Shown: piece after piece, positions 4,881-58,698 of the stretch
Layout of the letters: each line of letters begins with the position of its first letter
How positions within the stretch are numbered: the stretch's first letter is position 1
DNA from: Escherichia phage vb_EcoM-VR5
DNA length: 64,000 nt
Strand: one strand, 5' to 3'
Sequence record: NC_028881.1
Translations under genes and position numbers: made by a program
Notes under the pieces: model-generated
The model's database searches: none
Told to the model about the DNA's origin: nothing
The model's input: only the letters and a program-made list of their open reading frames with translations

Positions 4881-4896
4881 AAGGGCCGAAGCCCTT
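4872..4896 (-). terminator. rho-independent terminator (UUCG-loop hairpin + U tract)
   Basis: aagggc-ttcg-gccctt + TTTTTGCTTTT. Confidence 0.6.
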
Positions 4897-5164
4897 ATTC
4901 AAATCGAATGGTGGAGTTTTTGAACAGTAGCCCAGAGCACACGGTACCTTTAACAGTTTTACCTGTAGGACCGACAGCAATGAATCCTGTACGTTGGAAG
5001 TCATCTTCAGAACACCCAAACAAACTATAACCGGTGATTTGGATTTGCTCAAAACCATTGGCATTCAAAACCTTAGTAGCATTATCAGCGTCAGTACACC
5101 CGACCAGCGAAAAAGCAAGAACCAGTGCAGCAATAGTACGATTTACGTATTTCATATTTCTCAC
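4895..5164 (-). CDS. putative lipoprotein (89 aa)
   Basis: signal peptide with lipobox LVGC. Confidence 0.6.
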   Translation of the reverse strand: MRNMKYVNRTIAALVLAFSLVGCTDADNATKVLNANGFEQIQITGYSLFGCSEDDFQRTGFIAVGPTGKTVKGTVCSGLLFKNSTIRFE

Positions 5165-17735: not shown

Positions 17736-18182
17736 TCAACCTCGGTTCATAAAGGCATTAAAAATCTGGTCGTCAATTGAATAAACTGGAGCTTCAAGAA
17801 TTTTCAAAAGACTGTTTTTGATGTACTTGCTAGGGATACCCATATTAACGACATCATTATTCAATTTATTGTCTGGATTGATGTCTTTAAATTCAAACCC
17901 TTCAAACTCAACCTTGTCAGGAATACCATCAGCGAAAAAATAAACCAATTGATGCATTGTATTGCATGAAAATAATTTAGACCTCACTGCAATAAGTTCT
18001 TGCCAGTGGTTTAATTCTCTATTAAGAAGTTTATGAGCAAATACAATCCTATCATCGCTATCAACAATAAAATAGCCTAGGTATTGATGGTCGTCGCTCC
18101 AATACATCCTGTATGCCTGGGCATTTGGATTTTTACAACGAAGCTTTTTAATAATCAAAGTTCTGTTAATCATTTTATTCAC
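17736..18182 (-). CDS. hypothetical protein (148 aa)
   Basis: ORF. Confidence 0.6.
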   Translation of the reverse strand: MNKMINRTLIIKKLRCKNPNAQAYRMYWSDDHQYLGYFIVDSDDRIVFAHKLLNRELNHWQELIAVRSKLFSCNTMHQLVYFFADGIPDKVEFEGFEFKDINPDNKLNNDVVNMGIPSKYIKNSLLKILEAPVYSIDDQIFNAFMNRG

Positions 18183-18468
18183 CTGTCACCTCTTTAACAA
18201 TATTTTTGTTATCGAAATTGGCATCGCAGTACAGAACATAGTTATACTGCATAACACCACCGGATGCCAATTGGTCGGATACTTCTTTAACCATATCAGG
18301 ACGGTCGCGTTTAGTGATATTCATGATATCAGCGTAAATCTGATGTTCAACTGATTCTTGGTCTGCAGTCATTGACCATTCACAAAGGTCTTTATCCATT
18401 CCAGCCGTAACTGGAGCCGTACCACATGATGCTACTGTAAGGATTGCTGCGATTAATAACTTTTTCAT
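18175..18468 (-). CDS. sp: periplasmic protein, Spackle-like
   Basis: 97-aa ORF with signal peptide/lipobox ASCG; size and position between 61 and 41 as T4 sp. Confidence 0.5.
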   Translation of the reverse strand: MKKLLIAAILTVASCGTAPVTAGMDKDLCEWSMTADQESVEHQIYADIMNITKRDRPDMVKEVSDQLASGGVMQYNYVLYCDANFDNKNIVKEVTGE

Positions 18469-26723: not shown

Positions 26724-27224
26724 TTAAATCTTATCTTTACCGTATTCCATGCATTGTTCTACTGCAGCGGGCACTTTGGTCTTAAGCTTATTGATTTGTT
26801 TCTTATAATCACGGGCCTTATCAAAGCTTTCGGTTTCTAGCATTTCGTAATAACGAGCTTCATGGATAGAAACCTGCAGATTGATATGGTTTACACACAT
26901 AGCATACAGTTTCTGCTTTTTGTACAAATCATCTTGTCGCTTCATTTCTGCCTGGTGTTTGGCTAGTACCGCTTCTCGCTTAGACTCTTGTTCACGTTGG
27001 AATTCTATTTCACGAGCCGCATATTTACCGCAGTTATTTCCGCATTGGTTGTTAGCACGAGTATAAGTAATGCCTGAACCTGCACGGAACTTAACTTCAC
27101 CATCATACTGCTTCTGTTCAGCAGCAATACGAGCTTTACCTACTTCATCAGCCGTAACAACTTCACCGTATTGGACCGCACAACCAGAGAGTAATAATGA
27201 CGCTGCGATAATTAGCTTTTTCAT
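26724..27224 (-). CDS. putative lipoprotein (166 aa)
   Basis: signal peptide with lipobox LLSGC. Confidence 0.6.
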   Translation of the reverse strand: MKKLIIAASLLLSGCAVQYGEVVTADEVGKARIAAEQKQYDGEVKFRAGSGITYTRANNQCGNNCGKYAAREIEFQREQESKREAVLAKHQAEMKRQDDLYKKQKLYAMCVNHINLQVSIHEARYYEMLETESFDKARDYKKQINKLKTKVPAAVEQCMEYGKDKI

Positions 27225-52195: not shown

Positions 52196-52582
52196 TTATT
52201 CTAACGTTAACAAATACTTAGTTTGGTAAAAGACACCAGTGATGTCGTCCAAAGTCGATTGGATGGCCTTAGGAAGATTTTTGTAGATTTTATCAGATGC
52301 TTTAATAAGTTCATCAAGAAAATCTATAGGGTCTTTAGGCAGTTCTGAAGCAGACGGCAGTGATGCTTTATATTCTTTACCACTAAATCCTAGATACTGC
52401 TCACTGAACTGGTCTAGTGGTCCTTGAACTTCCGTATAATAGAAGTCGTATGCTTTGTGTCTTGCATAGCTTTTGGTTTCCAAATGGGCTGACTTAAAAT
52501 AGGCTAAAGAAACCAACAGCCAGCCAATATAAGAATCTACTTCAGTCCCTCGACTAAGTACGAAATCATTGAATTTCATCAT
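52196..52582 (-). CDS. hypothetical protein (128 aa)
   Basis: ORF followed by terminator. Confidence 0.55.
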   Translation of the reverse strand: MMKFNDFVLSRGTEVDSYIGWLLVSLAYFKSAHLETKSYARHKAYDFYYTEVQGPLDQFSEQYLGFSGKEYKASLPSASELPKDPIDFLDELIKASDKIYKNLPKAIQSTLDDITGVFYQTKYLLTLE

Positions 52583-52859
52583 CTACCTTCATTAGTTTAG
52601 CGTATCGTTCTCCGACCGCCCGACCTTCAATCGAGCAAGACTCTATTGTATTGCAATTTGAAAGTTTCCAAGAAGCAGTTACATAAGCCCAGTAGTCTTC
52701 AGAGGCCTTTACGCTAGGTTTACTCATTTGCGCATAAACTGGCATCGCACTACTAGCAAAGGCATCCATCAATTTAGGATCAGATTTGTTTGCTAGTGAA
52801 ACTGATGGGCTTAAACATCCGATCATAAGGATACAAGCCACTGTACGGAAAATACCCAT
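52566..52859 (-). CDS. secreted protein (97 aa)
   Basis: signal peptide. Confidence 0.5.
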   Translation of the reverse strand: MGIFRTVACILMIGCLSPSVSLANKSDPKLMDAFASSAMPVYAQMSKPSVKASEDYWAYVTASWKLSNCNTIESCSIEGRAVGERYAKLMKVDDEIQ

Positions 52860-53237: not shown

Positions 53238-53810
53238 TCAACTCGTTATTTCTATCCAATGCTTCCTGCATAATGACACGTAAGAATCGTTGCCACCTAT
53301 AGAAACTTGGTCGCCATCCTTAATTGCGATACCATTTTGGATACGAGCTGTCATAGTAGCCTTACGTCCACAATGGCACACACCTTTGTACTCAACGAGT
53401 TTATCTGCTGTAGCTAATAATTCAGCAGAGCCAGGAAACAGTTTACCCTGAAAATCAGTTCTTAGACCGTAACACATGACCGGTATATTATAATTATCTA
53501 CTATCTTTGCCAATTGTTTTATTTGCAAAGGTTCTAAGAACTGTGCTTCATCCACAAATACGCAGTGGATATCTTTTTGAGATTCAGCCCAACGATAGAA
53601 CTCGTATAGGTCCATGTCTGGAGTCACTGCATTAGCCTCTTGGCTAATCCCTATACGAGACGAAATTCTATGGCTTGATTCTCTATTATCTATCGCAGGC
53701 TTTAAAAGGAGTACACCCATACCACGTTCTTTATAGTTATGGGCAGCCGTTAGCAATGAAGAGGTCTTCCCAGAATTCATCGCCGCATAGTGAAACATCA
53801 AACTTGCCAT
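53238..53810 (-). CDS. tk: thymidine kinase
   Basis: 190-aa ORF; P-loop AAMNSGKTS; C-terminal Cys cluster. Confidence 0.88.
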   Translation of the reverse strand: MASLMFHYAAMNSGKTSSLLTAAHNYKERGMGVLLLKPAIDNRESSHRISSRIGISQEANAVTPDMDLYEFYRWAESQKDIHCVFVDEAQFLEPLQIKQLAKIVDNYNIPVMCYGLRTDFQGKLFPGSAELLATADKLVEYKGVCHCGRKATMTARIQNGIAIKDGDQVSIGGNDSYVSLCRKHWIEITS

Positions 53811-54535
53811 TTAGATACAATTCCTCTATAAGAACAATCGGGATAACCTTTACTCAAGGCTATCTTTTTAAACATATACGCCGAGGGTTTATTAGATTCT
53901 TCCCATAGTATTTTCAATTCATCATAATATTTCCAAGTCTCATTTCTAATAGGAGAAGGTTTTCCTTTCATTGCGCCCTGTTTACCAAACATAGGATTCT
54001 TTTCACCCTTTTTAGAATCGCTCATGTTTTTAATAGTAGCACATGAATGCTTAAAGCCTTTTAATTTTTTAGAAGCGAGACCTATTTTAGCCTTATGTTC
54101 ATCCGTAAATCCTATTCTATTCGAATAGTGGTTTGCGCCTTTATTAGAAGTGGTATATTTAGAAGCTTCTATTCTCGCAGCACTCCATTTAACTCCTTTT
54201 TTGGACCTGGACATTTTACATTTAGTTAGCAATGATAACTTAGTTCCTTTCTTTTTGCCGCGTCCGCCATCGGCAAAATTTAAAGAATGCTTTCCATATT
54301 TTAATTTAGCTTTTTCTACTAAAGGAACTTCAGCATCGTAAGCTTCATCTTCAGTTTCAAAGAATTTTAATATACGGGTTTTATAAGGGTGCTTTTTGCA
54401 AATATTTTTAACAACAGTGCCACTTCCAAAATACCCATCAGAAAGATTATCAGTAGAATGTTTTCCTACGTAATAATATTTTGCCTTGAGGGTTTTTATT
54501 ACAGTTAAATAATTATAATGGAATTCCTTTACCAT
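53798..54535 (-). CDS. GIY-YIG homing endonuclease (Seg-like) with NUMOD-type C-terminal domain
   Basis: YYYVGKHS...GYFGSG N-terminal motif; C-terminus similar to HNH endonuclease at 15188-15844; RBS AAGAAGG. Confidence 0.75.
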   Translation of the reverse strand: MVKEFHYNYLTVIKTLKAKYYYVGKHSTDNLSDGYFGSGTVVKNICKKHPYKTRILKFFETEDEAYDAEVPLVEKAKLKYGKHSLNFADGGRGKKKGTKLSLLTKCKMSRSKKGVKWSAARIEASKYTTSNKGANHYSNRIGFTDEHKAKIGLASKKLKGFKHSCATIKNMSDSKKGEKNPMFGKQGAMKGKPSPIRNETWKYYDELKILWEESNKPSAYMFKKIALSKGYPDCSYRGIVSKWQV

Positions 54536-54544
54536 ATTACCTTC

Positions 54545-54727
54545 TTAAAGCGTATTCACGTAAGCAATTAATTCGTTTTCTTTCTCATCAAACTGTTCGG
54601 CGATTTTTTCGTAATCTTCAGCACTCACAGGACCCCATTCATCGTATGATTGCATTCCAGAATTCTCTTCTAGAAGCTCATGGATAAGCTCAAACAATTT
54701 ATCTTTTTGTTCTTTACTTAGGCTCAT
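54545..54727 (-). CDS. hypothetical acidic protein (60 aa)
   Basis: ORF. Confidence 0.45.
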   Translation of the reverse strand: MSLSKEQKDKLFELIHELLEENSGMQSYDEWGPVSAEDYEKIAEQFDEKENELIAYVNTL

Positions 54728-55169
54728 AATCTACCACCACTAAATTAATATCAGGAGTAAACAAATTAATCAATTGATAAACCTTGTCCCAATCACCGCC
54801 AGCAATACCACAGCCAATGCGAGGAATATAAATTCTCGGTTTAAACAAAAGACCCTTTGCAGTACGGTTTAATTCTATCATACAGTTTACTAAAGCACCA
54901 TAATCAAGATTAGGACCTGGTTCATATTGGGTATAAAGATTATAGCAAATTTGCCCATTATTGCCTGTGGCTTGAGTAAATGTTCCAAGTTTTGCAGAAT
55001 CACCCAAATAAGTGGCTTCTCTATCAATGGCAAGAATAGGTGAATAAGCCTTAGCCAATTGACCTGCTACGCCCGAACCCATAGTATGAAAACAGTTACA
55101 CCCATGAGCAACGTTATTACCTTGAAGAAACAGGGCGACGATATCGCCCTTAATATAATCAATAATCAT
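54714..55169 (-). CDS. macro-domain-like protein (putative ADP-ribose binding/hydrolase)
   Basis: GDI...GCNCFHTMGSGVAGQLA resembles macrodomain NAAN/GGGV region; tentative. Confidence 0.5.
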   Translation of the reverse strand: MIIDYIKGDIVALFLQGNNVAHGCNCFHTMGSGVAGQLAKAYSPILAIDREATYLGDSAKLGTFTQATGNNGQICYNLYTQYEPGPNLDYGALVNCMIELNRTAKGLLFKPRIYIPRIGCGIAGGDWDKVYQLINLFTPDINLVVVDYEPK

Positions 55170-55522
55170 TTAGAGTTTAGTCCTCGGTTGTAAGAGTCAA
55201 CGAGTCTGTCTACCATAGACGCGCACATTTCTTTATACTTTTTATCAGATGGAACACATTCAGTAACGTTTAGACGTTGCTCGTATCTTTTAGAAAGAGT
55301 TTTCTCTTTCATTCGACGATGCTCGACGTCATTCTGCCCATCTTTAAAAGCAGCTGTTATTTTTGAACTGAATTCAATAACACATTCAGTATTACTTGGA
55401 TGACAATAATCTTTTGCTGTACGGGTAGCATACTCGACAATTGAATTATTGGTATCATCAACCTGTGACGCTAATACTCCCGGAGCAATCAACATAAGCG
55501 CTATAGTCATCTGTTTAATCAT
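55166..55522 (-). CDS. secreted Cys-containing protein (118 aa)
   Basis: signal peptide. Confidence 0.55.
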   Translation of the reverse strand: MIKQMTIALMLIAPGVLASQVDDTNNSIVEYATRTAKDYCHPSNTECVIEFSSKITAAFKDGQNDVEHRRMKEKTLSKRYEQRLNVTECVPSDKKYKEMCASMVDRLVDSYNRGLNSK

Positions 55523-56062
55523 TTAATATACCGCCTCAAACATCTTTTTAGATTTTAGGTAATTGGCCTTTTCTAGAACTTCCGAAGCATATTTACTACC
55601 TGCTTTGGCATTCCAGCCCGCATTATAAGAAGCAATCGCTTTTCTCAGGTCACCTTTGTGAACATTAATCCAATACGACAGTTCAATGTAGGCCCAAGAG
55701 GCACTGTTCTGTCGGTTTTGGACCATACGAATTATTTCTTTATCCGACATCTTCCAACCTACCTGTTTAACACGACTTCTTAACGTAGGCAAGTAATTTT
55801 GGAACATGCCATAAGCATGGTGCTTATCTTTATTTAAACCTTGATTAATCCCAGCAGATGATTCCTGCCATAATAATCCGGCCATTATATATCCTAATCC
55901 TTTTTGATTAGGGGTTTCTTTGAACTTTCCCGACTTTTGGTATTGTTCACCGAAAGCATACGCGTAATGTAAATTATCGAGTTGTTCATTACTGAAAGTA
56001 GGCTCTACGCTATAGGCAGACATACTAACTGTCAATAGTAAAGTGGCTAATACTTTTTTCAT
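55523..56062 (-). CDS. periplasmic lytic transglycosylase (SLT domain)
   Basis: signal peptide; LWQESS, GMFQ, YNAG motifs. Confidence 0.65.
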   Translation of the reverse strand: MKKVLATLLLTVSMSAYSVEPTFSNEQLDNLHYAYAFGEQYQKSGKFKETPNQKGLGYIMAGLLWQESSAGINQGLNKDKHHAYGMFQNYLPTLRSRVKQVGWKMSDKEIIRMVQNRQNSASWAYIELSYWINVHKGDLRKAIASYNAGWNAKAGSKYASEVLEKANYLKSKKMFEAVY

Positions 56063-56074
56063 GAGACCTCATTA

Positions 56075-56533
56075 TTAAAGATAGATTACTTTCGTGCTAG
56101 TTTTACCTTCTAAACGTTTAGAGTTAACAAATGCCATACGACATTTTAATGAATATCCTTTATCAGGATGTTTACGATCTACAGTCATACCTAACCATAA
56201 GGTTTTATCGGTAATCTCGAGACGCAGTGGACGATACACTTTACCTGGGACAATTTCAGATTCTACATCAGGCAGAGGTTCCTGGATTAAAAATTCATGG
56301 ATTTCTTTAACATGGTTATGGAGTTGCTTGAATAAAGCAAAAACGTATTTTTCGTCAATTTCACGTTGGATAGCACGGTCCAATAGGTGATTAGAGTACT
56401 TAATAAAGAAAGCTGGGACTCCACTCTTAATGGCGGCTTTTTTGATGGATGTATTCAGTTCACGAAATTCGGTTTCGAACTGACGACGTAATTTGTTGCG
56501 GCGGATGAATACTTCTGAATTAATTTCTGACAT
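56075..56533 (-). CDS. regB: endoribonuclease RegB-like
   Basis: 152-aa ORF; N-terminus EVFIRRNKLRR resembles recalled T4 RegB; position relative to denV. Confidence 0.6.
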   Translation of the reverse strand: MSEINSEVFIRRNKLRRQFETEFRELNTSIKKAAIKSGVPAFFIKYSNHLLDRAIQREIDEKYVFALFKQLHNHVKEIHEFLIQEPLPDVESEIVPGKVYRPLRLEITDKTLWLGMTVDRKHPDKGYSLKCRMAFVNSKRLEGKTSTKVIYL

Positions 56534-56548: not shown

Positions 56549-56589
56549 GTTGATAGGTTTATAGTATCATGCCTACAGGAGATGTAAAC
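56549..56589 (-). promoter_or_regulatory. early promoter family member with SD/anti-SD inverted repeat (upstream of regB)
   Basis: tctcctgtag / ctacaggaga flanking TGATACTATAAACCTATCAAC. Confidence 0.55.
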
Positions 56590-58658: not shown

Positions 58659-58698
58659 TTGATAGGTCTATAGTATCATACCTACAGGAGATGTAAAC
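58659..58698 (-). promoter_or_regulatory. early promoter family member with SD/anti-SD inverted repeat (upstream of denV)
   Basis: atctcctgtag / ctacaggagat flanking TGATACTATAGACCTATCAAC. Confidence 0.55.

What the first reader, a model, noticed from the sequence alone, without database searches (positions are those of the whole stretch)
55166..56062. Secreted lytic transglycosylase plus a secreted Cys-containing partner
Two translationally coupled genes both encode signal peptides. One has SLT-domain motifs (ES, GMFQ, AYNAG). A periplasmic peptidoglycan-cleaving enzyme expressed from the early region could act in superinfection exclusion or lysis timing rather than in virion entry.
Basis: seen in the sequence. 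Interest (0 to 1): 0.4.

Follow-up and report, generated by a model that had tools for sequence, protein, structure and literature searches.

The report
Exported SLT-like enzyme plus Vs protein
These two adjacent early genes of a T4-like phage are the known genes vs.1 and vs; both look like proteins exported to the cell envelope (a cell-wall-cutting enzyme and a small disulfide-stapled helical protein), which is odd because vs is annotated everywhere as a modifier of a cytoplasmic tRNA synthetase.

Summary
Window 55523-56062(-) and 55166-55522(-) are two abutting ORFs (TAA|ATG) in a JS98/Bp7-type T-even phage. They are the orthologues of T4 vs.1 and vs.

Vs.1 (179 aa) has a Sec-type signal peptide. 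It also has invariant GH23/SLT motifs (E67-S, G85..Q88, Y146-N-x-G149) and a confident model whose best PDB matches are all lytic transglycosylases or goose-type lysozymes. This SLT similarity was already published in 2006.

Vs (118 aa) is named "valyl-tRNA synthetase modifier" in every database. Yet its whole family keeps export features. Of 56 cluster representatives, 55 have a hydrophobic signal-like N-terminus, two lineages have a lipobox, and all keep four cysteines in two close pairs. The model is four helices with no solved relative.

A Vs-family gene follows vs.1 within -8 to +7 nt in 49 of the 51 T4-like loci that hold it intact; the other two hold decayed copies.

Best reading: an exported peptidoglycan glycosidase plus an exported partner. 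Export of both is likely; a physical or functional partnership is not shown. The conflict with the classical cytoplasmic role of Vs is unresolved and is the interesting part.

The parts
56561..56588 (-). Promoter-like site (TTTACA-16 nt-TG-TACTAT) upstream of regB. Candidate early promoter for a regB-vs.1-vs-tk.4 transcript.
   Evidence: An identical pair of hexamers sits upstream of denV (58697-58670). The scan as a whole is not enriched over shuffles (11 found, 13.5 expected), so this is a consensus match only.
56075..56533 (-). regB (endoribonuclease), the gene immediately upstream. Context only.
   Evidence: Pfam REGB_T4 E 6e-69. It lies 7-30 nt upstream of vs.1 in most of the 40 T4-like loci measured.
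55523..56062 (-). vs.1 orthologue: 179-aa precursor of an exported GH23 (SLT / goose-lysozyme fold) peptidoglycan glycosidase.
   Evidence: phrog_600 E 3.6e-67. Pfam SLT 18.5 bits, E 0.0015, below the gathering score of 21.3. 35 of 40 relatives hit SLT at E<=0.01 and no other family. AF2 pLDDT 85.8. Best PDB matches are all GH23.
56009..56062 (-). Vs.1 predicted Sec signal peptide, residues 1-18 (MKKVLATLLLTVSMSAYS|V).
   Evidence: Heuristic. The same architecture is kept in 93 of 98 homologues despite sequence turnover.
55862..55864 (-). Codon of Glu67, the predicted catalytic acid (WQESSAG).
   Evidence: W65, E67 and S69 are invariant in 40 sequences of 42-97% identity. Coordinates.
55799..55810 (-). 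GMFQ motif (residues 85-88), SLT motif II.
   Evidence: G85, Q88 and N89 are invariant.
55616..55630 (-). SYNAG motif (residues 145-149), SLT motif III.
   Evidence: Y146, N147 and G149 are invariant.
55166..55522 (-). vs orthologue ('valyl-tRNA synthetase modifier' family, PF26829 / phrog_1256): 118-aa precursor of a predicted exported four-helix protein with two disulfides.
   Evidence: phrog_1256 E 4.3e-34. 45% identical to T4 Vs. AF2 pLDDT 87.2 with four helices.
55469..55522 (-). Vs predicted Sec signal peptide, residues 1-18 (MIKQMTIALMLIAPGVLA|S).
   Evidence: In Vs orthologues of other phages (P0146, P0147; loci L024, L027, L031, L046) this region instead ends in a lipobox.
55382..55405 (-). 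First Cys pair, C40-x6-C47, flanking the loop between helices 1 and 2.
   Evidence: Invariant. Helix boundaries.
55223..55258 (-). Second Cys pair, C89-x10-C100, flanking the loop between helices 3 and 4.
   Evidence: Invariant. Helix boundaries.
54714..55169 (-). tk.4 / adfM macro-domain gene. Its start overlaps the vs stop (ATGA). Cytoplasmic anti-DarTG2 factor in T4.
   Evidence: Pfam Macro E 5e-7. Junction. T4 tk.4 = AdfM in bioRxiv 10.1101/2025.11.20.689424.

Best explanation
The two ORFs are the JS98-type orthologues of T4 vs.1 and vs. They are probably made from one early transcript that starts upstream of regB.

Vs.1. It is exported through Sec and cleaved after about residue 18. The mature 161-aa basic protein has the GH23 fold shared by soluble lytic transglycosylases and goose-type lysozymes, and it cuts peptidoglycan glycan strands with Glu67 as the acid. 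No second conserved carboxylate is present. It therefore more likely acts as a lytic transglycosylase (1,6-anhydro-MurNAc product) than as a hydrolase.

Vs. It is exported too, and as a lipoprotein in some phages. It folds into four helices in which two local disulfides staple the two hairpin loops. It is made next to Vs.1 from an abutting or overlapping start codon.

Proposed relationship. Vs acts in the envelope as a partner of Vs.1, either as a regulator/inhibitor or as a stabilising subunit.

What is shown and what is inferred.
- Shown here: gene identity, motifs, conservation of export features, predicted folds, and adjacency.
- Inferred: actual export and cleavage, disulfide formation, enzymatic chemistry, and any Vs-Vs.1 contact.
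- My confidence by step: both exported about 0.8, Vs.1 enzymatically active about 0.6, the two work together about 0.4.
For: Identity:
- The region is 93-99% identical in DNA to Bp7, JS10, JS98 and ESCO10, where it is annotated regB / vs.1 / vs / tk.4.
- T4 has the same order, with an 8-nt vs.1/vs overlap.
- Hits to phrog_600 and phrog_1256.

Vs.1:
- Invariant W65, E67, S69, G85, Q88, N89, E127, W131, Y146, N147, G149, Y158.
- SLT is the only Pfam family hit, in 35 of 40 relatives, best E 1.3e-7.
- Model pLDDT 85.8, pTM 0.80.
- The top Foldseek PDB hits are MltD, salmon/goose/swan g-type lysozymes, Slt, Slt70 and phi6 P5, with probability 0.9-1.0.
- In distant T4-like contigs L052 and L054, the Vs.1-family gene carries a signal peptide. 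It lies directly upstream of Rz-like i-spanin and o-spanin genes.

Vs:
- 55 of 56 representatives have a hydrophobic N-terminus.
- A lipobox replaces the cleavage site in P0146 (ALSGC|K) and P0147 (LLAC|S).
- All 56 keep four Cys in two close pairs.
- The family has only 27 clusters at 50% identity among 1.84 billion proteins, all short.
- Model pLDDT 87.2, with the Cys pairs flanking the two hairpin loops.
- Full-length N-His T4 Vs made in the cytoplasm went to inclusion bodies (PMC8076793).
- The only stretch of the Vs profile that aligns to Spackle is Spackle's signal peptide.

Linkage:
- In all 51 T4-like viral loci the ORF directly after vs.1 is a Vs-family gene: intact in 49, at -8 to +7 nt, and decayed in L003 and L032.
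- All 26 loci found with Vs lie on contigs already found with Vs.1.
- In T4 HIDEN-SEQ data, vs and vs.1 insertions share low baseline counts (26.6 and 22.6). Flanking genes are much higher: regB 178.6, tk.4 289.6, vs.3 652.
- Both genes drop in M9 glucose: vs log2FC -2.19, q = 0; vs.1 -0.87, p = 0.0055.
- Both also drop on clinical strain CFE299: vs -1.04, not significant; vs.1 -1.20, q = 0.015.
Against: - Classical work, recalled from memory and not retrievable here, reports the following. T4 infection stabilises a thermolabile host ValRS in vivo, vs mutants lack this effect, and a roughly 10-kDa phage factor binds ValRS. That implies a cytoplasmic action.
- The M9-specific defect of T4 delta-vs fits an amino-acid or tRNA role at least as well as an envelope role.
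- No SignalP or LipoP run was possible. Export is predicted, not shown.
- Four clustered Cys could in principle bind a metal instead of forming disulfides.
- Adjacency is weak evidence in these highly syntenic genomes. regB is equally adjacent to vs.1.
- Distance-matrix correlation for Vs.1-Vs (r = 0.72) is below that for Vs.1-RegB (r = 0.85).
- Vs can be only 27% identical between phages whose Vs.1 are 78% identical (L010/L011).
- Some lineages keep vs.1 but have no vs (L052-L073).
- Natural vs decay occurs (L003, L032).
- The Vs model has no similarity to any known lysozyme or transglycosylase inhibitor.
- vs.1 insertions are themselves costly, which argues against a simple enzyme/antidote logic. 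Polarity of vs.1 insertions on vs is not excluded.
- The window Vs.1 is below Pfam's SLT gathering score. Foldseek E-values are only 0.025-0.5 and TM-scores 0.41-0.49.
Confidence: 0.5

Rival explanations
1. Vs is what the annotation says: a cytoplasmic protein that binds host valyl-tRNA synthetase. The hydrophobic N-terminus is not used for export, or Vs acts as a precursor before export. Its position next to vs.1 is only inherited T4 gene order. Vs.1 is an unrelated exported muramidase.
For: - Every source names the family 'valyl-tRNA synthetase modifier'.
- From memory, classical genetics and biochemistry indicate an in-vivo effect on ValRS.
- T4 delta-vs is impaired specifically in minimal medium.
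- There is no co-evolution signal with Vs.1.
- Vs type is uncoupled from Vs.1 similarity.
Against: - A cytoplasmic protein gives no reason for a signal-like N-terminus to be kept in 55 of 56 representatives while its sequence turns over.
- It gives no reason for two lineages to acquire a lipobox, or for four invariant Cys.
- Database names are transferred from T4 by homology, not tested.
- Full-length protein was insoluble in the cytoplasm.
- The mature T4 protein would be 11.0 kDa against 13.1 kDa for the precursor. The mature size is closer to the roughly 10-kDa factor I recall.
Confidence: 0.25
2. Both proteins are exported but act independently. Vs.1 is an auxiliary wall-remodelling or lysis-helper enzyme. 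Vs is a separate periplasmic factor with another target, for example a host enzyme or an incoming phage's enzyme, as Spackle targets gp5.
For: - Export features are present in both.
- Vs.1-family genes occur without vs, next to spanins or next to tk.4.
- Vs decays naturally in some phages.
- No co-evolution signal.
- The strictly invariant surfaces of enterobacterial-type Vs (RTAKDYC, SMVDRLVDSYNRGL) would suit a conserved host target.
Against: - vs always lies within 8 nt of the vs.1 stop wherever it is intact.
- It was never found without vs.1.
- The two genes share a similar fitness profile in T4 transposon data.
Confidence: 0.2
3. Vs.1 is not an active enzyme but a peptidoglycan-binding or degenerate SLT-like protein. 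The pair has a structural or anchoring role in the envelope.
For: - The Pfam score is below the gathering threshold.
- Fold-match statistics are modest.
- Sequence profile matches to solved g-type lysozymes are not significant, E 0.35-0.7.
Against: - The catalytic Glu-Ser and all three SLT motifs are invariant across 40 sequences down to 42% identity. That is the pattern expected for an active site under selection.
- SLT is the only family hit, in 35 of 40 relatives.
Confidence: 0.05

Closest known systems
Bacteriophage T4 genes vs.1 and vs (NC_000866 61726-62271 and 61386-61733)
   Same: - Same order, regB-vs.1-vs-tk.4, on the early strand.
- Window Vs is 45% identical to T4 Vs. T4 Vs.1 belongs to the P0030 cluster, 66% identical to the window protein.
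- T4 Vs also starts with a signal-like segment (MTKILVLCIGLISFSASASA|D) and keeps the four Cys.
   Different: - The junction is an abutment here and an 8-nt overlap in T4.
- The first Cys pair is C-x6-C here and C-x5-C in T4.
- The biochemical role assigned to T4 Vs (ValRS modification) is cytoplasmic, which the sequence features do not fit.
GH23 enzymes: family-1 lytic transglycosylases (Slt70, Slt, MltD; Pfam PF01464) and goose-type lysozymes
   Same: - E-S, G-x-x-Q and Y-N-x-G motifs.
- Helical lysozyme-like fold.
- Size close to goose-type lysozyme (about 185 aa).
   Different: - Very divergent: Pfam 18.5 bits, 13-18% identity to solved structures.
- Single domain, with no superhelical or LysM modules.
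- Lacks the Asp after the G-L-M-Q motif of g-type lysozymes.
- Phage early gene with its own signal peptide.
T4 Spackle (gp61.3) inhibiting the gp5 tail lysozyme
   Same: A small (about 80-100 aa mature), helical, early-expressed phage protein exported to the periplasm, whose role concerns a muramidase (PMC7677548, PMC7650644). A Spackle homologue is in this window at 18175-18468.
   Different: - No sequence or fold similarity between Vs and Spackle beyond the signal peptide.
- Spackle's target is on the incoming virion and is not a co-expressed neighbour.
- No inhibition by Vs has been shown.
Bacterial periplasmic proteinaceous inhibitors of lysozymes and lytic transglycosylases (Ivy, MliC/PliC, PliG)
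   Same: Exported small proteins, in some cases lipoproteins or disulfide-bonded, that control GH22/GH23 enzymes in the periplasm. PliG is solved in complex with a g-type lysozyme, and that lysozyme chain (4g9s_A) is one of the best structural matches to Vs.1.
   Different: - Vs is all-helical and matches none of them. As far as I recall these inhibitors are largely beta-sheet folds.
- Vs is phage-encoded and lies next to the enzyme gene.
Secreted or SAR phage endolysins in lysis cassettes with spanins
   Same: A muralytic enzyme carrying its own N-terminal export signal. Distant Vs.1-family genes lie directly upstream of Rz/Rz1-like spanins.
   Different: - Here the gene is in the early region, far from the holin, the e lysozyme and the spanin genes.
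- T4 vs.1 is non-essential for growth.

Membership tests
GH23 / SLT domain (Pfam PF01464) | Catalytic Glu followed by Ser (E-S motif) | tested here: met
   E67 is invariant, S68 nearly invariant and S69 invariant (WQESSAG) in 40 sequences of 42-97% identity.
GH23 / SLT domain (Pfam PF01464) | Motif II G-[LM]-[MF]-Q and motif III (A/S)-Y-N-x-G | tested here: met
   G85, Q88, Y146, N147 and G149 are invariant.
GH23 / SLT domain (Pfam PF01464) | Significant match to the family profile | tested here: inconclusive
   The window protein scores 18.5 bits, E 0.0015, below the gathering score of 21.3. 35 of 40 relatives match at E<=0.01 (best 1.3e-7) and match no other family.
GH23 / SLT domain (Pfam PF01464) | Lysozyme-like helical GH23 fold | tested here: met
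   AF2 model pLDDT 85.8. The 17 best Foldseek PDB hits are all lytic transglycosylases or g-type lysozymes, with probability 0.77-1.0. E-values are only 0.025-0.5 and TM-scores (by query length) 0.39-0.49.
GH23 / SLT domain (Pfam PF01464) | Cleaves peptidoglycan glycan strands (1,6-anhydro-MurNAc product) | not testable with these tools
   Needs purified protein and muropeptide analysis.
Goose-type lysozyme (hydrolase branch of GH23) | Additional conserved acidic residue(s) besides the catalytic Glu (Asp after G-L-M-Q; named from my own knowledge) | tested here: not met
   In the HMMER alignment to salmon g-type lysozyme, the 'vdk' after GLMQ is an insertion absent from Vs.1. There is no invariant Asp or Glu between E67 and G85.
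Sec (SPase I) signal peptide, both proteins | Positive n-region, uncharged hydrophobic h-region, small residues at -3/-1 | tested here: met
   My own crude heuristic. It also picks the Spackle and RI homologues as positive controls. 93 of 98 Vs.1 homologues pass it, and 55 of 56 Vs representatives have a hydrophobic N-terminus. SignalP was not available.
Sec (SPase I) signal peptide, both proteins | Actual export and cleavage | not testable with these tools
   Needs fractionation, fusions or N-terminal sequencing.
Vs family ('valyl-tRNA synthetase modifier', PF26829 / phrog_1256) | Full-length homology to T4 Vs | tested here: met
   phrog_1256 E 4.3e-34. All homologues carry PF26829. 45% identity to T4 Vs.
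Vs family ('valyl-tRNA synthetase modifier', PF26829 / phrog_1256) | Binds and modifies host valyl-tRNA synthetase | not testable with these tools
   The original papers are not held. The sequence features (export signal, four Cys) argue against a cytoplasmic site of action but do not test it.
Known proteinaceous muramidase inhibitors (Spackle, Ivy, MliC/PliC, PliG) | Sequence or fold similarity to a family member | tested here: not met
Known proteinaceous muramidase inhibitors (Spackle, Ivy, MliC/PliC, PliG) | Inhibits a lysozyme or lytic transglycosylase | not testable with these tools
   Needs an activity assay of Vs.1 with and without Vs.
Bacterial lipoprotein (Vs orthologues only) | Lipobox [LVI][ASTVI][GAS]C at the end of the signal peptide | tested here: not met
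   The window Vs has no Cys before residue 40. Orthologues P0146 (LSGC), P0147 (LLAC) and loci L024, L027, L031, L046 do have one.

The most novel reading that the evidence does not exclude
The classical T4 gene vs does not encode a cytoplasmic modifier of valyl-tRNA synthetase in the way it is annotated. Its product would be a Sec-exported, disulfide-bonded periplasmic (in some phages lipid-anchored) protein that works with the neighbouring exported lytic transglycosylase Vs.1. The reported ValRS 'modification' would then be one of three things: an association formed after cell breakage, a side activity of unexported precursor, or the product of a mis-assigned ORF. The vs.1-vs pair would be a phage-encoded periplasmic enzyme-plus-regulator module that matters in nutrient-poor hosts.
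Probability: 0.3. Interest if true: 0.7.

Novelty: new member of a known kind. Interest (0 to 1): 0.45.

Why it matters
The role of vs is a small but very old open question in T4 biology: why would a phage modify one host aminoacyl-tRNA synthetase? A 2025 transposon screen made vs the strongest T4 gene needed specifically in minimal medium, and it interpreted that through the ValRS annotation.

If Vs is in fact an envelope protein coupled to an exported peptidoglycan-cleaving enzyme, three things follow:
- that phenotype, and the name copied into hundreds of phage records (794 here hold a match), need re-reading;
- T4-like phages would have a second periplasmic muramidase-related module besides gp5/Spackle;
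- the question becomes testable with simple fractionation, fusion and enzyme assays.

If the annotation is right, the universally conserved export-like N-terminus and cysteines still need an explanation.

Tried and rejected
- **Original vs literature.** Miller 2003, Valerie 1986 and Muller & Marchin 1975 are not held. Statements about them rest on memory.
- **Prior notice of Vs export or a Vs.1 function.** Literature searches found only the 2006 SLT remark and the 2025 HIDEN-SEQ phenotype. The SignalP table in Nolan 2006 covers only novel ORFs, not vs or vs.1.
- **Vs against Pfam.** No family at E<=10 was shared by more than 2 of 40 members. There was no DUF1311/LprI signal, an idea I had from memory.
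- **Homology to other periplasmic T4 proteins.** hhalign of the Vs profile against the window's Spackle and RI homologues found nothing beyond the signal peptide.
- **Mirror-tree co-evolution.** Vs.1-Vs r = 0.72 against Vs.1-RegB r = 0.85, so it is uninformative.
- **Gene fusions.** No fusion of the two families exists. Lengths are 110-196 aa for Vs.1 hits and 77-136 aa for Vs representatives.
- **Locus search with the diverse Vs alignment.** It failed for lack of a conserved stretch. The closer alignment found only contigs already found with Vs.1.
- **Complex prediction.** A read-through Vs.1-Vs fusion model was considered and dropped.
- **Terminators and internal promoters.** None lies between vs.1 and vs.
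Full report
**What is there.** The window is a T-even phage of the JS98/Bp7 type. The 2.1 kb around the finding are 93-99% identical to ESCO10, Bp7, JS10 and JS98. In annotated records such as Bp7 and JS10 the genes under the match are named regB, vs.1, vs and tk.4.

The finding's coordinates match two - strand ORFs exactly: 55523..56062 (179 aa) and 55166..55522 (118 aa). Upstream is regB (Pfam REGB_T4, E 6e-69). Downstream is a macro-domain gene (tk.4).

T4 itself has the same order, with vs.1 and vs overlapping by 8 nt. In the window the vs.1 TAA is followed directly by the vs ATG, and the vs TGA overlaps the tk.4 ATG (ATGA). A promoter-like TTTACA-16-TG-TACTAT lies upstream of regB (56588-56561). 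No promoter- or terminator-like site separates vs.1 from vs. That scan is a consensus match only and is not enriched over shuffles.

**Vs.1.** PHROGs places it in phrog_600, of unknown function (E 3.6e-67). Pfam gives only SLT, at 18.5 bits, below the gathering score of 21.3. Of 40 relatives scanned, 35 hit SLT at E<=0.01 (best 1.3e-7) and nothing else.

In an alignment of 40 sequences down to 42% identity, these residues are invariant: W65, E67, S69, G85, Q88, N89, E127, W131, Y146, N147, G149 and Y158. They correspond to the E-S, G-x-x-Q and Y-N-x-G motifs of family-1 lytic transglycosylases.

The AF2 model is confident (pLDDT 85.8, pTM 0.80). Its best PDB matches are all GH23 enzymes: MltD, salmon, goose and swan g-type lysozymes, Slt, Slt70 and the phi6 lysin. 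Probabilities are near 1, but E-values are modest (0.025-0.5) and TM-scores are 0.4-0.5. A sequence profile search of the PDB reaches g-type lysozymes only at E 0.35-0.7.

In that alignment the Asp that follows G-L-M-Q in g-type lysozymes falls in an insertion missing from Vs.1. No other acidic residue is invariant near E67. I therefore infer transglycosylase rather than hydrolase chemistry. This is inference, not a test. The SLT similarity of vs.1 is not new. Nolan et al. 2006 reported it for six T4-like phages and cited earlier PSI-BLAST matches for T4 (PMC1524935).

**Vs.** The second ORF is the orthologue of T4 vs (phrog_1256 'valyl tRNA synthetase modifier', E 4.3e-34). It is 45% identical to T4 Vs, and all homologues carry PF26829. 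Every database source uses the ValRS name, evidently transferred from T4.

The family is tiny and phage-restricted. A full HMMER scan of 1.84 billion representatives finds 27 clusters, all 77-136 aa. Across 56 full-length representatives:
- 55 have a strongly hydrophobic stretch in the first 30 residues, and the exception is N-terminally truncated;
- the sequence of that stretch is not conserved;
- two lineages end it with a lipobox (ALSGC|K, LLAC|S);
- all 56 keep four Cys in two close pairs (also loci L024, L027, L031, L046).

The mature part is highly conserved within the enterobacterial type (RTAKDYC, SMVDRLVDSYNRGL).

**Signal peptides versus chance.** SignalP was not available, so I wrote a crude n/h/c-region test. 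Both proteins pass. Only 10 of 108 window ORFs of at least 80 aa pass, and these include the homologues of Spackle and RI, both known periplasmic T4 proteins (PMC7677548 and PMC8385771 listed). Among homologues, 93 of 98 Vs.1 proteins pass; the failures are truncated or mis-started sequences.

**Linkage of the two genes.** In 51 of 51 T4-like viral contigs found with Vs.1 (42-98% identity), the ORF immediately downstream is a Vs-family gene. My first HMM, built from close homologues, detected 45 of them. The other six are clearly the same family on alignment. It is intact in 49 loci, where the distance from the vs.1 stop to the vs start is -8 to +7 nt. The other two hold decayed copies.

All 26 loci found starting from Vs are on contigs already found from Vs.1. 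More distant Vs.1-family genes (25-35% identity) lack vs:
- in L052 and L054 the gene lies directly upstream of Rz-like i-spanin and o-spanin genes and pseT;
- in L068 it is followed directly by the tk.4-like macro gene.

This evidence has limits. regB is adjacent to vs.1 just as consistently, in 48 of 51 loci. Pairwise-distance correlation for Vs.1-Vs (r = 0.72) is lower than for Vs.1-RegB (r = 0.85). Vs can be only 27% identical between phages whose Vs.1 are 78% identical (L010/L011). vs also decays naturally, with an in-frame deletion in L003 and a split ORF in L032.

**Experimental data from others.** A 2025 preprint (10.1101/2025.11.20.689424) reports that T4 vs is the gene most depleted in M9-glucose relative to LB, and that delta-vs plaques poorly on M9. 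In its Extended Data Table 6:
- LB versus M9: vs log2FC -2.19 (q = 0); vs.1 -0.87 (p = 0.0055, q = 0.155).
- K-12 versus clinical strain CFE299: vs -1.04 (not significant); vs.1 -1.20 (q = 0.015).
- In the LB control, mean insertion counts are 26.6 (vs) and 22.6 (vs.1), against 178.6 (regB), 289.6 (tk.4) and 652 (vs.3).

So the two genes, unlike their neighbours, share a mild fitness cost. Polarity of vs.1 insertions on vs cannot be excluded. The same preprint shows that tk.4 is an anti-DarTG2 macro-domain factor, AdfM. That is a cytoplasmic function unrelated to the pair. Separately, full-length N-His-tagged T4 Vs expressed in E. coli was insoluble (PMC8076793). That is what one would expect of a precursor with a signal peptide and disulfide cysteines, but it is only circumstantial.

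**The conflict.** From memory, and not retrievable here, the classical work runs as follows. T4 infection converts a thermolabile host ValRS to a stable form, vs mutants fail to do so, and a phage factor of about 10 kDa binds ValRS. That implies a cytoplasmic action.

The sequence family says export. Mature T4 Vs would be 95 aa and 11.0 kDa, against 13.1 kDa for the precursor, so a processed protein fits a roughly 10-kDa factor at least as well. I cannot decide between four possibilities:
- dual location or action of the precursor;
- association after cell breakage;
- mis-assignment of the genetic locus to this ORF;
- a non-functional export signal.

The last is hard to reconcile with the conservation pattern and the lipobox variants.

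**Verdict.** The proposed biological roles (superinfection exclusion, lysis timing) are untested.

As objects, these are known, catalogued T-even genes, and the Vs.1 prediction is already in the literature. What I could not find in the searchable literature or in any database name is that Vs, and its whole family, carries export signals and disulfide-type cysteines.

My best explanation is an exported GH23 peptidoglycan glycosidase with an exported four-helix partner. My confidence is about 0.8 that both are exported, about 0.6 that Vs.1 is active, and about 0.4 that they work together. Overall interest is moderate. It rests on the re-reading of a 50-year-old gene assignment, which simple experiments could settle.

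Noticed in passing
L052:3962-5147 and L054:3962-5239: In two distant T4-like contigs a Vs.1-family gene (phrog_600, E about 1e-47) with a signal peptide sits directly upstream of Rz-like i-spanin (phrog_739) and o-spanin (phrog_812) genes and pseT, with no vs gene. This places the family in a lysis/envelope cluster there.
   Followed up: partly
L003:4541-4798 and L032:4549-4876: Natural decay of vs. One phage has an in-frame internal deletion (85 aa) that removes the first Cys pair. Another has the ORF split into 65-aa and 55-aa pieces.
   Followed up: no
L024, L027, L031, L046 (ORF starting at the vs.1 stop); P0146, P0147: Vs orthologues of Karamvirus-type and other phages carry a lipobox (..ALSGC|K..LLAC|S) instead of an SPase I site. 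They are therefore predicted lipoproteins but are still named 'valyl-tRNA synthetase modifier'.
   Followed up: partly
window 54714-55169 (-): Macro-domain gene tk.4, whose start overlaps the vs stop (ATGA). Its T4 orthologue was recently named AdfM, an anti-DarTG2 factor.
   Followed up: partly
window 18175-18468 (-) and 52566-52859 (-): Homologues of Spackle (phrog_1586) and the antiholin RI (phrog_1246). Both were picked up by the crude signal-peptide test, so they served as positive controls. The Spackle homologue's N-terminus contains ..TVASCG, a lipobox-like string.
   Followed up: partly
window 4895-5155 (-) and 26724-27224 (-): Two ORFs of unknown function (phrog_902, phrog_1754) with lipobox-type N-termini (..SLVGC..LLSGC). 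They are further predicted envelope proteins of this phage.
   Followed up: no
window 53798-54535 (-): A 245-aa homing-endonuclease-like ORF (phrog_314, E 1.6e-21) lies between tk (53238-53810) and a 60-aa ORF (phrog_653).
   Followed up: no
window 56561-56588 (-) and 58670-58697 (-): Identical promoter-like hexamer pairs (TTTACA, 16 nt, TG-extended TACTAT) lie in the gaps upstream of regB and of denV.
   Followed up: no
T4 HIDEN-SEQ Extended Data Table 6 (10.1101/2025.11.20.689424): In LB versus M9, insertions in regB rise (log2FC +1.17, p 0.049) while those in vs and vs.1 fall. Insertions in nrdA, nrdB and td also rise.
   Followed up: no
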